In this document: positions 27,001 to 30,000 of the stretch, piece after piece
Layout of the letters: the number at the start of each line of letters is the position of its first letter
How positions within the stretch are numbered: the first letter of the stretch is position 1
Origin: a virus
Taxonomy: Duplodnaviria > Heunggongvirae > Uroviricota > Caudoviricetes
Virus record (IMG/VR): IMGVR_UViG_2925929528_000002
Span: 1 to 47,716 of that record
Reading direction: 5' to 3' (one strand)
DNA: 47,716 nt
Position numbers: made by a program

Positions 27001-30000
27001 ATCTTCAACCGTCGGCGAACAGGCCCGCACAGACAGCCAGTTAAGGCCAAATGTGGCGGTTCGCTCTTCCGCCAGTGCAATGGGATCGCCCTCGCGAGTA
27101 ATCGGGTATTTATCCACCTCATCCGCCAGCAGAACACGGATCGGACGGCGGGCAAGGTTATCGGGACTACCGGCGCCAGCCAGCGCCAGAAATCCGCCAG
27201 TGAAGGCTTTATACAGAATGGTTTCTTTCGAGCTCTTCTGTTTTGAGTCACCTATGATATTACGCAAGACTGGCGTCACGCGAACCAGAGGGCTTATACG
27301 TTCTTTCGAAAACTGCTCTGCAGCTTCCTCTTTCGGCTGCAGAAGTAAAATCGGGCATGGATCGAGGTGGGCGAAATAACCAAACAGGTTTTCCAGCAGC
27401 GCGGTTTTCATTAACTGGGTACAGCACATCACAGTGATAATGTGGACGCCCGATTCCGTCGCGGCCAGCATAGGACCGCGGGCGATCTCTACCGTTGAGG
27501 TTTCCCAGTTCCCGGAGGTGCTGCCAGCTTCTTTCGCCAGCTTCCGGTAATCATCGGCCCATTGCGGGACGCTGATCCGCGGCGGCGGTGTCCACCCTTT
27601 TCGGACACTCAGTTGAAGACGCTCAATCTTCCGCTGGGTTAAACTCTGGTTCTCCGAGGACTGAGATATGTTTGTGGACATGTTCAATCAGCACCTCTGT
27701 CATCCTGTCCGCCGGCACATTCAGATCGGCGGCTATCAGCGGTGCCACGCGTGAAGGCCAGTTCAGCCAGGCATCACGTTGCTGGCGAAAGGCGTTAAAC
27801 AGAACCTCCTCGGCGATGGCCAATTCAATTGTCTGGCCGCTGTCTTTTTCATACTGGAGCTTTGCCTGCAGGGCCATGTAATTTTCACGGATCCGCGCGG
27901 CCTCTTCCCTGGAAAGGTCAGCACCTTCTGTAAGCATTATCTGGCGAACGGTTTCATCAATTTCATCGTCGCCATCATTCCGGGGTGCTGAGGATTTTTT
28001 CTTCTTCGCGTTTGATGCCCGCGGATCTTTTCCATCGCGGTTTTTCTTCATTGCGGCATCGCTCGCTTCAACATCAATCAGGTCACCATCCATGACGATA
28101 AACCGACCGGCCTTGATCCATCGGCCAATGGTCTTGCGATCGACGCCTGAATGTTGCGCGTACTGACTCTGATTCATCGTGGTCATGGGACATCACCTGG
28201 GACATTTTGGGGGTGGGACATTTACCTGGGACATTTTTGCAATGTCCCACACGAATGTCCCACTGGAATAAATGGAATAATCCGTGCTGGCTCTGGCATG
28301 GCTGGTGATCCCTTGGGGTGGGACATGGGACACAAAATAAAAACTTATAGCTAGGAAAACACTGCGGCGCGCAATGCCCGTACCTTACAAAAGTCTCAGG
28401 AAGGACCCAAACCCGAGGGGTGGGGTCACCTCGCCGTCCTGATTGCGTCAGCGATGGCACGGCTCAGCGCGCCGGGCATCAATGCTTCCGCCATAGTTCG
28501 TGAGCGGTCCATGTACCCGAGCACTGGCGACACGGGAAGAGCATCACCAAACCTCACCAGCAACTTAGGAGAGCGCTGTTTCGGCTTCAGCCTGCGCGTA
28601 CCGTTCGCTGAACGTTTTGCCCGTTTCTTCTTCGACTTCTTCGGCTTCCTGCGCTGCCAGACAGCGTTGACGCCGTTCACCTCTCCGACGAACACATTCG
28701 GCTTCGCCTTCATCTGCGAAAGCTTATTACGCGGCATGTTGCCGTATTTGTTCAGTTTGATGTTCTTTGGATTGAGGAGCGCCTGGCTGTTCAGCTTATG
28801 TTCGCCGCCAAATTCAAATGGTTCGAGATATTCAGCGGCGACATCACGCACAAAGACTTTCGCGCGGAGGTTGTTCTTTCTGGCGCCAGCAGAGCCCACT
28901 GAGTTTACGGTGAACGGCGTCGGCGATTCCAGTTTTCGTCCCAGCGCCACTTTTTGCGCTGCGGCGATATCCCTTACCACCGATGTCATGGCCTGGGCCG
29001 TGGCGAAAGGGATTTGCTTCTGCAACTGTTTGAGCTGCTGTGATAAATCTTTAAGCGAAGCCATGCTCAACTTCCTCGATTCACCGCTTGGTTATTAAGA
29101 CTTATATTGTAGATACAGAACATGTTTATGACGCATTTTTAGTCACCAGCCGATTATTAGTATTATGATAGGTGATATCCTTATTTATCTGCCTTTAATT
29201 CTTTTCTGGATATTTTCAGCATATTTTCAAAAAGACGCTTAGTCATTGAAAGAAGGTGTTCCTCTGCTTCACCATAATCCCAGCCGCGAAAGTGAACATC
29301 ATAATCAACGCGTTTTTCCTCATCAAGATAATCTCTTAATAATTTTGATGCGCTATCCGTAATTAGCAACTGGCCAACATGGCTATATTTTTTTATTAAA
29401 CTTCTTGCCCTTACGGCAGATAATTTCATTTCTCTGAGTTGTTCATCATTCAGTTCTACAAACTCAGGGTAATCTTCTGGGCCCTCCATTCTGTAGGATT
29501 TTAGATCGGAGTAATACTCCTGAAGGACTTTAATTTGATATATCCCATCAGTTAACTCAATAAATGCTGCCGCTCGTTTTTCCCACCACTTTTCACTATA
29601 AAAACGCTTCAATCCGAAAAACATTGCTATCCAAGCTCCGAACAACCCAGATAGTAAGCCAATCAAAAGCTGATAAAAATAATTCATTCCTACCTCCACA
29701 TCAGTTATTGAAGGTATTTTGCATTATCACAGGCACTAATGGAATACCTCCTGTAATGCCATTGCAAATCCTACCAGTAAGTGGCCTTTGCAATGGTTTT
29801 CATGAAGGAGGTTTTGATGCAGTATATGCTTTGCAACGATGAAGTGTGACCATAAATCTCATACGTTTATATCATTGCTGAAGATACTCATGCCGTGGAT
29901 AATTCTGCCCGAGTGTTAAGCCATTGAAAGAGTCATATCTCACCATCTTGGTCACCTTTCTGGAACTATCCTCTCCGGGCGTTTTTTTGTACATCATCAT

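What the first reader, a model, noticed from the sequence alone, without database searches (positions are those of the whole stretch)
28186..28440. cos region: TGGGACAT repeat array and candidate cosN upstream of the small terminase gene
Eight or more direct and inverted copies of TGGGACAT lie within 150 bp of the Nu1-like start, resembling cosB-type small-terminase binding sites. A GC-rich partially symmetric element about 230 bp upstream is a possible cosN. This supports cos-type packaging; the repeat sequence differs from lambda R sites.
Basis: partly seen in the sequence, partly recalled or inferred. Interest (0 to 1): 0.4.

Follow-up and report, generated by a model that had tools for sequence, protein, structure and literature searches.

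The report
Lambda-type cos site of a prophage

Summary
The repeat array is real. There are 7 exact TGGGACAT copies plus one TGGGACAC, all within 28186-28333 and none elsewhere in 47.7 kb (1.5 expected).

They lie directly upstream of a small-terminase gene (27623-28186, minus strand), followed by a gpA-type large terminase.

The cutting site is not the GC-rich element about 230 bp upstream, which is the poorly conserved 3' end of the neighbouring ORF. It is GCATTGCGCGCC at 28366-28377 (minus strand). This matches the experimentally mapped 12-nt 5' cohesive end of Serratia phage BZS1, and the flanks are conserved too. A heptamer identical to lambda cosQ (GGGTCCT) sits 31 nt upstream.

On the terS-sense strand the copies form a tandem pair at nt 46-59 of the predicted genome, a 64-bp spacer, an inverted pair, then four direct copies. 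This parallels the R3/R2/R1 layout of lambda cosB.

Across 126 classifiable related loci the heptamer tracks the TerS recognition-helix class without exception (TGGGACA, GGTAACA, TGTTCGC and others). This holds even where cosN or the TerS C-terminal half differs.

Within the window's class, motif columns are 98.6% conserved against 68% for other non-coding columns.

Verdict: an ordinary lambda-type cos site and a new member of a known kind. Physical ends and TerS binding remain untested.

The parts
28399..28408 (-). cosQ-like box GGGTCCTTCC. The core GGGTCCT (28402-28408) lies at -31..-25 from the predicted left end.
   Evidence: Identical to lambda bases 48473-48479 (GGGTCCT, -30..-24). That these lambda coordinates are cosQ is from my memory. 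Invariant in 34 related sequences although it was not part of the search pattern. Present 30-32 nt upstream of cosN in loci retrieved through the TerS C-terminal domain.
28366..28377 (-). cosN: predicted 12-nt 5' cohesive end GCATTGCGCGCC. It sits in a conserved 16-mer, GGGCATTGCGCGCCGC (28364-28379).
   Evidence: Unique in the window. Identical to the cohesive end of Serratia phage vB_SspM_BZS1, which was mapped by PhageTerm plus PCR and sequencing (PMC7556043; record feature cosL). The flanks are homologous.
28347..28354 (-). Conserved CTAGCTAT box between cosN and the first repeat pair. Role unknown.
   Evidence: Conserved across repeat classes. E. coli prophages switch repeat class just downstream of it.
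28319..28333 (-). cosN-proximal tandem pair, reading GTGTCCCATGTCCCA on the terS-sense strand, at nt 45-59 of the predicted genome. This is the R3-equivalent.
   Evidence: The GGTAACA class has a pair in the same position and register (tttGGGTAACAGGTAACAc). Lambda R3 lies at about nt 53-66 (PMC4669245).
28263..28318 (.). Poorly conserved spacer of 56 bp between motif ends (64 bp start to start). This is the position of the IHF site I1 in lambda.
   Evidence: Low conservation. No IHF consensus with up to 1 mismatch.
28242..28262 (-). Inverted pair, reading TGGGACAT on the terS-sense strand, at 28242-28249 and 28255-28262. This is the R2-equivalent, opposite in orientation to the proximal pair.
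28186..28234 (-). Four direct copies (ATGTCCCA on the terS-sense strand) at 28186, 28198, 28214 and 28227. This is the R1-equivalent group. The last copy abuts the terS start codon.
   Evidence: Motif columns are 98.6% conserved.
27623..28186 (-). Small terminase (TerS), 187 aa. The N-terminal winged helix-turn-helix covers residues about 4-50. The invariant Met is M4 (28177), so the true start may be either ATG.
25555..27687 (-). Large terminase (TerL), gpA type. The listed TTG start may be over-extended.
   Evidence: Pfam GpA_ATPase 9.5e-66 and GpA_nuclease 4.6e-80. 49% identical to BZS1 TerL overall, and by my visual estimate about 80% in the nuclease half.
28410..28435 (.). It is not part of cos; it is the 3' end and stop codon of ORF 28426..29070.
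   Evidence: Conservation is only about 0.1-0.6 per column.

Best explanation
Window 28186-28408, read on the minus strand, is the complete cos site of a temperate phage with a lambda-type (gpA/TerS) terminase. It runs cosQ (GGGTCCT), then cosN 31 nt later, then cosB.

cosN would be nicked with a 12-nt stagger to leave 5'-GCATTGCGCGCC ends. cosB is eight copies of the heptamer TGTCCCA/TGGGACA in a 2 + 2 (inverted) + 4 layout that ends at the terS start codon.

Inferred mechanism:
1. The N-terminal winged helix-turn-helix of TerS binds the heptamers.
2. The pair about 50 bp from the nick (the R3 position) anchors TerL on cosN.
3. The spacer lets the DNA fold back, so the inverted pair and the four proximal copies join the same complex.
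4. cosQ serves termination at the next cos on the concatemer.

Shown here: the sequence elements, their homology to a mapped cohesive end, their conservation, and their co-variation with the TerS recognition helix.

Inferred, not shown: the physical ends of this phage's DNA, TerS binding, DNA bending, and the role of cosQ.
For: 1. Gene context. TerS (PHROG 57) is followed by a gpA-type TerL. Lysis genes and a conserved ORF lie upstream.

2. cosN. The exact 12-mer of the BZS1 cohesive end, mapped from virion DNA, occurs once in the window. Its flanks are homologous to the joined BZS1 ends and to phiNP.

3. cosQ. GGGTCCT is identical to lambda 48473-48479 at nearly the same distance, -31 against -30. 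It is invariant in relatives.

4. Geometry. The terS ATG is nt 192 of the predicted genome; lambda Nu1 starts at 191. The proximal pair lies at nt 45-59; lambda R3 is at about 53-66.

5. Shared layout. The GGTAACA class uses the same proximal, inverted and direct arrangement (L067, L071, L081).

6. Co-variation. Among 169 loci, six TerS recognition-helix classes cover 126 loci, and each pairs with its own heptamer. No locus carries two or more copies of another class's motif. This holds where cosN differs (Pandoraea L136-138), where the TerS C-terminal half differs, and in E. coli prophages that share cosQ and cosN with the window but switch both array and helix-turn-helix.

7. Selection. In 34 unique window-type sequences (50-92% identical overall), motif columns are 98.6% conserved against 68% for other non-coding columns.

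Against: - No virion DNA ends or binding data exist for this phage. cosN rests on homology to BZS1, whose TerL is only 49% identical overall.
- cosB and the helix-turn-helix codons lie within 250 bp of each other. Part of the co-variation could therefore be simple linkage.
- No IHF consensus lies in the spacer, so the lambda-style bend is unsupported.
- Foldseek E-values for the TerS domain are not significant, and hhalign probability to Nu1 is only 54%.
- A 7-bp spacing in the proximal pair is too tight for two domains on one face of the helix, so the stoichiometry is unclear.
Confidence: 0.85

Rival explanations
1. The heptamers are operators for a transcription factor other than TerS, or serve only to autoregulate terS. 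They control late or terminase gene expression rather than packaging recognition.
For: The last copy abuts the terS start codon, and four copies cover the 50 bp upstream of it. The nearest structural neighbours after the TerS domains are excisionases and BldC-type regulators that bind repeated sites.
Against: No sigma-70-like promoter or terminator was found on either strand in 27900-28800. The cosN-proximal pair sits at a fixed about 45-59 nt from the nick in every class, including the minimal BZS1-type cos, where the whole cosN-to-ATG interval is 74 nt. The motif tracks the TerS recognition helix across six classes with no exception.
Confidence: 0.06
2. cosN is the GC-rich, partly symmetric element about 230 bp upstream (about 28415-28434).
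For: It is GC-rich and has 5-bp inverted arms, CGAGG/CCTCG. It lies upstream of terS.
Against: It overlaps the stop codon of ORF 28426..29070. Its per-column conservation is only about 0.1-0.6 in 34 relatives. It lies upstream of cosQ, which in lambda precedes cosN. The mapped BZS1 end aligns to 28366-28377 instead.
Confidence: 0.02
3. The phage packages by a headful (pac) mechanism, and the repeats are a pac-type TerS recognition site.
For: Multiple TerS sites flanking a cut site occur in pac phages such as SPP1 (background in PMC4669245).
Against: TerL is the gpA type, with both gpA domains. A close homologue of the site gives defined 12-nt cohesive ends. A cosQ box, needed only for sequence-specific termination, is conserved.
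Confidence: 0.02
4. The motif/helix-turn-helix correlation is only genetic linkage. The repeats bind a host protein or are structural DNA such as a bend or iterons.
For: The array and the helix-turn-helix codons are adjacent, so they are inherited together. The binding partner has not been tested.
Against: Different motif classes coexist in prophages of one host species, E. coli, which argues against a host factor. Within one class, the spacers, copy number (5-9) and spacing diverge while the heptamer stays 98.6% conserved. This shows selection on the heptamer itself, alongside a conserved recognition helix.
Confidence: 0.04

Closest known systems
Phage lambda cos (cosQ-cosN-cosB with R3-I1-R2-R1; terminase gpNu1/gpA)
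   Same: - Order cosQ, cosN, cosB, then the terS start.
- The cosQ heptamer GGGTCCT is identical at nearly the same offset, -31 against -30.
- The predicted cohesive end is a 12-nt 5' extension.
- The first TerS site lies about 50 bp from the nick, the middle sites are inverted, and the promoter-proximal sites are direct.
- The terS ATG is at nt 192 against 191 in lambda.
- TerL is the gpA type.
- The TerS N-terminal winged helix-turn-helix is closest in fold to lambda-family TerS domains.
   Different: - The cohesive end matches lambda at only 5 of 12 bases.
- The binding motif is a 7-8-bp unit present eight times, not three 16-bp R sites.
- No IHF consensus lies in the spacer.
- TerS does not hit Pfam Phage_Nu1.
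Serratia phage vB_SspM_BZS1 cos (and Citrobacter phage phiNP)
   Same: - Identical 12-nt cohesive-end sequence, mapped experimentally in BZS1.
- Homologous cosQ box, nick flanks and CTAGCTAT box.
- The homologous ORF (p72 / phiNP_029) lies upstream.
- The TerL nuclease half is, by my visual estimate, about 80% identical.
   Different: - BZS1 and phiNP carry three GGTAACA copies in a 74-nt cosN-to-ATG interval, a 'simple' cosB. The window has eight TGGGACA copies in 191 nt.
- Their TerS has a different recognition helix (SRKTVTSWKARG against DRKTIGRWIKAG) and a different C-terminal half.
- The BZS1 paper did not describe a cosB or these repeats.
N15 versus Monarch: simple and complex cosB with one shared specificity (Feiss et al. 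2015, PMC4669245)
   Same: Within one TerS specificity, short and long cosB forms coexist. Here GGTAACA occurs as 3 copies in 74 nt (BZS1) and as 6-7 copies in about 197 nt (L067, L071, L081) (background).
   Different: This is a different phage group with a different cosN and motif. The window itself has only the complex form. No accessory site inside terS was found.
Lambda versus phage 21 packaging specificity (same cosQ and cosN, different cosB and Nu1 recognition helix)
   Same: cosQ and cosN stay constant while cosB and the TerS recognition helix change together. The window-type, GGTAACA-type and TTCACAC-type prophages of E. coli share near-identical cosQ and cosN. Classes 1 and 2 differ at the positions that hhalign pairs with Nu1 residues 20 and 24, which are the specificity residues in lambda and 21.
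   Different: At least six classes are seen here rather than two. Whether they are orthogonal has not been tested.

Membership tests
Lambda-type cos site (cosQ-cosN-cosB) served by a gpA/TerS terminase | A gpA-family large terminase is encoded just downstream of the small-terminase gene. | tested here: met
   Pfam GpA_ATPase 9.5e-66 and GpA_nuclease 4.6e-80 on 25555-27687. PHROG 15.
Lambda-type cos site (cosQ-cosN-cosB) served by a gpA/TerS terminase | cosN: staggered nicks give 12-nt 5' cohesive ends in virion DNA. | not testable with these tools
   Only sequence-level support is available. The window contains the identical 12-mer with homologous flanks of the end mapped in BZS1. The DNA ends of this phage itself are unknown.
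Lambda-type cos site (cosQ-cosN-cosB) served by a gpA/TerS terminase | A cosQ heptamer lies about 30 bp upstream of the nick. | tested here: met
   GGGTCCT at 28402-28408 (-31..-25) equals lambda 48473-48479. Invariant in relatives. Its function in termination was not tested.
Lambda-type cos site (cosQ-cosN-cosB) served by a gpA/TerS terminase | cosB: repeated TerS sites lie between cosN and terS, the first about 50 bp from the nick and the middle one inverted. | tested here: met
   Copies start at nt 46 and 53 (one orientation), 117 and 130 (inverted), then 145, 158, 174 and 186. The motif co-varies with the TerS helix-turn-helix. Binding itself was not tested.
Lambda-type cos site (cosQ-cosN-cosB) served by a gpA/TerS terminase | An IHF site (I1) lies between R3 and R2. 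| tested here: not met
   No WATCAANNNNTTR match with up to 1 mismatch in 28186-28440. IHF sites are degenerate, so this is weak negative evidence. N15-type cos sites also lack this layout.
[quoted passage not shown] | The 12-nt cohesive end is closely similar to GGGCGGCGACCT. Known members differ at 2-3 positions. | tested here: not met
   GCATTGCGCGCC against GGGCGGCGACCT gives 5 of 12 identical. The definition is in PMC4669245.
gpNu1 small-terminase family (Pfam Phage_Nu1) | Sequence membership in the Pfam family. | tested here: not met
   No Pfam hit at E <= 0.01. Only weak generic helix-turn-helix hits across 20 family members. The 120 listed homologues (best of 233) carry no precomputed Pfam domain.
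gpNu1 small-terminase family (Pfam Phage_Nu1) | An N-terminal winged helix-turn-helix DNA-binding domain of the Nu1 fold. | tested here: met
pac (headful) packaging site | A headful-type terminase (not gpA type) and terminally redundant, permuted DNA. | tested here: not met
   TerL is the gpA type. The homologous site in BZS1 yields unique 12-nt ends. DNA structure was not testable here.

The most novel reading that the evidence does not exclude
The site is one cassette of a natural set of at least six interchangeable pairs, each a TerS recognition helix with its own heptamer. All ride on a constant cosQ-cosN chassis whose cosQ is identical to lambda's.

Classes 1 and 2 differ essentially by the central dinucleotide of the heptamer (nGT[CC/AA]CA).

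The 2+2+4 array with no IHF consensus may assemble an IHF-independent initiation complex made of TerS alone (a wrap or filament). The copy on the terS start codon may also feed back on terS expression.
Probability: 0.25. Interest if true: 0.5.

Novelty: new member of a known kind. Interest (0 to 1): 0.3.

Why it matters
- **Annotation.** It fixes the genome ends and packaging mode for a widespread group of enterobacterial prophages (Raoultella, Klebsiella, Kluyvera, Citrobacter, Salmonella, E. coli including strain HS). Their TerS is annotated everywhere as 'hypothetical protein'.

- **Reach of cosQ.** It shows that lambda's cosQ heptamer and cos geometry extend well beyond the classical lambda-like group.

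- **A specificity series.** The family offers a ready-made comparative series: one cosN, and several TerS/heptamer specificities that differ by a few bases and residues. This could be used to study or engineer packaging specificity, for example orthogonal cosmid or transducing systems.

None of this changes current understanding of how cos phages package DNA.

Tried and rejected
- **Nucleotide searches of the phage collection.** Megablast and blastn of the region found nothing. Only protein-level hits led to BZS1 and phiNP.

- **IHF site.** No consensus match with up to 1 mismatch in the cos region.

- **Promoters and terminators.** None found in 27900-28800, apart from one unrelated plus-strand hairpin inside the upstream ORF.

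- **Rfam.** Only a sub-threshold chance hit.

- **Contig ends as evidence of physical DNA ends.** Rejected. Viral-contig loci are storage chunks, so matches at locus ends (L054, L007, L103, L045) mean nothing. Only L095 and L120 are real contig starts at or near the 16-mer, which is too few to count.

- **Whole-cos alignment to lambda.** Only z = 2 against shuffles. Similarity is confined to cosQ, the nick flanks and a GTTTTC..CTAT stretch, so no claim of overall homology is made.

- A2 and A3 were used instead.

- **Structure and profile searches.** Foldseek against the PDB gave no significant E-values. A profile search of PDB sequences gave only E > 0.1 hits: RppC, RacA and TerS 7lxs.

- **Literature.** The 12-mer appears in a phage context only in the BZS1 paper. 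The sequence of cosQ could not be confirmed from searchable text. Its lambda coordinates are from memory.
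Full report
**1. The observation**

TGGGACAT occurs seven times in the 47.7-kb window, all between 28186 and 28326. Shuffles give 1.48 expected for the whole window, and none of 100 shuffles reaches seven. A one-mismatch copy, TGGGACAC, at 28326-28333 makes eight.

Six copies share one orientation and two (28242-28249, 28255-28262) are inverted. The array ends exactly on the A of an ATG at 28186.

**2. Gene context**

All the relevant genes are on the minus strand.

- ORF 27623-28186 (187 aa) matches PHROG 57, 'terminase small subunit', at E = 1e-34. It has no Pfam family.
- It overlaps ORF 25555-27687 (710 aa), which carries both Pfam gpA domains: GpA_ATPase 9.5e-66 and GpA_nuclease 4.6e-80.
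- Upstream lie ORF 28426-29070 (PHROG 1924) and a lysis cassette.
- The closest TerS homologues (97% identical) come from Raoultella planticola. The 120 listed homologues, the best of 233, carry no precomputed Pfam domain, and nearly all that have a name are called 'hypothetical protein'.
- E. coli prophages about 80-92% identical across this region occur in 59-62 of 5,426 complete genomes, including strain HS.

**3. Where cosN is**

A protein-level search found distant TerS relatives in Serratia phage vB_SspM_BZS1 and Citrobacter phage phiNP. The BZS1 record starts with a feature 'cosL; left cohesive end' at 1-12, and terS starts at 75.

The BZS1 paper reports 5' cohesive ends with the overhang GCATTGCGCGCC. 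They were determined with PhageTerm on virion reads and checked by sequencing a PCR product across the prophage cos against the phage DNA ends (PMC7556043).

The same 12-mer occurs exactly once in the window, on the minus strand at 28366-28377. The flanks are clearly homologous:

- Window: GGGTCCTTCCtgagacttttgtaaggtacgg|GCATTGCGCGCC|gcagtgttttcCTAGCTAT
- BZS1 (right end joined to left end): GGGTCCTTCCctgcacttttgtaaagcacgg|GCATTGCGCGCC|gcgttctgcgtCTAGCTAT

. phiNP shows the same arrangement.

cosN is therefore 180-191 bp upstream of the ATG. It is one of the least conserved stretches among relatives.

**4. cosQ and overall geometry**

The heptamer GGGTCCT lies at 28402-28408, which is -31 to -25 from the predicted left end. 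Lambda has the same heptamer at 48473-48479, which is -30 to -24. From my memory of Wieczorek and Feiss (2001), those are the coordinates of cosQ. The searchable literature confirms only that cosQ is a highly conserved 7-bp site needed for termination (PMC4669245).

The box is invariant in 34 related sequences even though it was not part of any search pattern. It recurs 30-32 nt upstream of cosN in loci retrieved through the TerS C-terminal domain.

The terS ATG would be nt 192 of the virion genome; lambda Nu1 starts at 191.

The cohesive end itself matches lambda's at only 5 of 12 bases. Overall cos similarity to lambda is weak (z = 2). It is confined to cosQ, the nick flanks and a GTTTTC..CTAT stretch.

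**5. Anatomy of the array**

Coordinates below count from the predicted left end, on the terS-sense strand.

| Group | Start positions | Orientation |
|---|---|---|
| Tandem pair, 7-bp period | 46, 53 | TGTCCC |
| Spacer (64 bp start to start) | – | poorly conserved |
| Inverted pair | 117, 130 | GGGACA |
| Direct group | 145, 158, 174, 186 | TGTCCC |

This is the same logic as lambda cosB. In lambda, R3 is near the nick at about nt 53-66, R2 is inverted, and R1 has the same orientation as R3 (PMC4669245).

No IHF consensus (up to 1 mismatch) lies in the spacer. No promoter-like or terminator-like site lies on the minus strand. No Rfam family matches.

**6. Comparative evidence that the heptamers are TerS sites**

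*Retrieval through cosN.* A scan of IMG/VR for the 16-mer GGGCATTGCGCGCCGC returned 119 stretches. Of the 122 sequences then examined (those stretches plus phiNP, BZS1 and the window), 87 have a TerS homologue starting 30-290 nt downstream. Downstream of the same cosN there are different repeat motifs, and each goes with its own TerS recognition helix.

*Retrieval independent of cosN and the helix-turn-helix.* A second sample was retrieved through the conserved TerS C-terminal peptide RD[AS]W[LQ]NWP. It gave 526 relatives in species-representative genomes, of which 80 were kept. These range from Enterobacteriaceae to Burkholderiales and Sphingomonadales and show the same pattern.

*Pooled result.* 169 loci were pooled, and 126 of them fall into six helix classes.

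| Recognition-helix class | Loci | Matching heptamer | Loci with 2 or more copies |
|---|---|---|---|
| [DN]RKT[IV].RW (window class) | 47 | TGGGACA (median 8 copies) | 47 |
| S[RK]KT[VA][TS].W | 41 | GGTAACA | 36 |
| SD[TM]LV..A | 20 | TGTTCGC | 11 |
| SHTAV.KW | 6 | GGTTTCA | 6 |
| C..K.VRR | 9 | GTCCGCA | 7 |
| SR..FYNW | 3 | TTCACAC | 2 |

No locus in any class has two or more copies of another class's motif.

*What the motif follows.*

- It follows the helix where cosN differs. Pandoraea L136-138 have GAGCGAAGACTC in the cosN position together with GGTAACA.
- It follows the helix where the TerS C-terminal half differs. The two C-terminal types combine freely with the helix-turn-helix classes.
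- E. coli prophages have near-identical cosQ and cosN to the window but carry GGTAACA (strain JNQH498) or TTCACAC (strain VG1046-3E9) arrays with the matching TerS. The breakpoint falls just after the CTAGCTA box.

*Register and layout.* The cosN-proximal pair is in register between classes: tttGTGTCCCATGTCCCAc against tttGGGTAACAGGTAACAc. The long GGTAACA arrays repeat the window's layout, with starts at 48 and 55, then 123 and 135 inverted, then 154, 167 and 191. BZS1 and phiNP have a short, 'simple' form with three copies and terS at nt 75. This recalls the N15/Monarch dichotomy.

*Selection within the window's class.* In 34 unique sequences that are 50-92% identical over the region, motif columns are 98.6% conserved against 68% for other non-coding columns. 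In more distant class members, copy number (5-9) and spacing change while the heptamer persists.

This pattern argues against simple linkage and against a host factor.

**7. The TerS protein**

- A profile of 20 diverse family members aligns residues 2-33 with lambda Nu1 residues 4-34 (hhalign E = 1.3e-4, probability 54%).
- An AlphaFold model from 24 homologues has mean pLDDT 71, about 78 in the first 50 residues. It shows a beta-helix-helix-beta-beta-helix unit at residues 3-50.
- Foldseek E-values are not significant, although lambda gpNu1 (1j9i) ranks fifth.
- In the hhalign register, classes 1 and 2 differ at the positions matching Nu1 residues 20 and 24. These residues discriminate between lambda and phage 21. 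This rests on a low-confidence alignment and is an inference.
- TerL is 49% identical to BZS1 TerL. By my visual estimate, the nuclease half is about 80% identical. That fits the shared cosN.

**8. Mechanism**

The best-supported reading is a lambda-type cos:

1. TerS winged helix-turn-helix domains bind the heptamers.
2. The proximal pair positions TerL to nick cosN with a 12-nt stagger.
3. The distal copies stabilise the post-cleavage complex on the left end.
4. cosQ acts at termination.

The sequence elements, their homology, conservation and co-variation are shown. Physical ends, binding, bending and stoichiometry are inferred.

**9. Novelty and score**

In the searchable literature the 12-mer appears in a phage context only in the BZS1 paper. 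That paper did not describe a cosB. The TGGGACA class and the family-wide pairing of helix-turn-helix and heptamer appear undescribed. The mechanism, however, is the textbook one.

This is a new member of a known kind. Interest is 0.3.

Noticed in passing
window 27623-28186; loci L002, L018, L071 and others: The TerS family is mosaic. Two different C-terminal halves ('RDAWLNWP...HVHKHI..LGEPEF' and 'EY.RMRTRLIAIAPEHGPRLR') combine freely with the N-terminal helix-turn-helix classes. The DNA-binding module together with its cosB, and the presumed TerL-binding module, are therefore exchanged independently.
   Followed up: partly
L205 (E. coli JNQH498) 980-1210; L206 (E. coli VG1046-3E9) 960-1250; window about 28340: E. 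coli prophages share a near-identical upstream ORF end, cosQ and cosN with the window. Just after the CTAGCTA box they switch to a GGTAACA or TTCACAC array with the matching terS. This looks like a recombination hotspot at the cosN/cosB boundary.
   Followed up: partly
window 28426-29070 (minus strand): This 214-aa ORF (PHROG 1924, 'minor tail protein') ends 17 nt before the cosQ box. It occupies the same position in phiNP (029) and BZS1 (p72, where two small ORFs separate it from cos). The BZS1 authors also noted the conserved position. Its function is unknown.
   Followed up: no
window 25555-27687 (TerL residues about 245-365): The window TerL has a Cys-rich stretch (CPHC...CECC...CC...CPDC), most of which has no counterpart in BZS1 TerL. 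The ATPase half is much more diverged than the nuclease half, which I estimate by eye at about 80% identity. The listed TTG start overlaps terS by 65 nt and may be over-extended.
   Followed up: no
window 27623-28186 and homologues P0001-P0120: The 120 listed TerS homologues (best of 233) carry no precomputed Pfam domain. Nearly all that have a name are 'hypothetical protein'; one UniRef entry says terminase small subunit. This is an annotation gap for a widespread prophage group.
   Followed up: no
L072, L037, L089 (class 1 relatives), just after the proximal pair: Several relatives carry a near-palindrome of the form TGCATA-TTATGCA immediately downstream of the cosN-proximal pair. The window lacks it. 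It may be a binding site for another factor or a bend element.
   Followed up: no
L129 (contig labelled Vagococcus sp. WN89Y): A contig attributed to a Gram-positive Vagococcus carries an enterobacterial-type copy of this cos/terS, with TerS about 87% identical to the window's. This is probably contamination or a mislabelled assembly.
   Followed up: no
L134-L138, L144, L175-L176 (Burkholderiales and Acetobacteraceae prophages): With cosQ (GGGTCC) kept at about -30, the cosN sequence itself varies between lineages (GGCACTGCGCAC, GAGCGAAGACTC, GGACCGTGGACT, GGATGCTTCGCA and others). cosN, cosB and cosQ therefore evolve as separate modules.
   Followed up: partly
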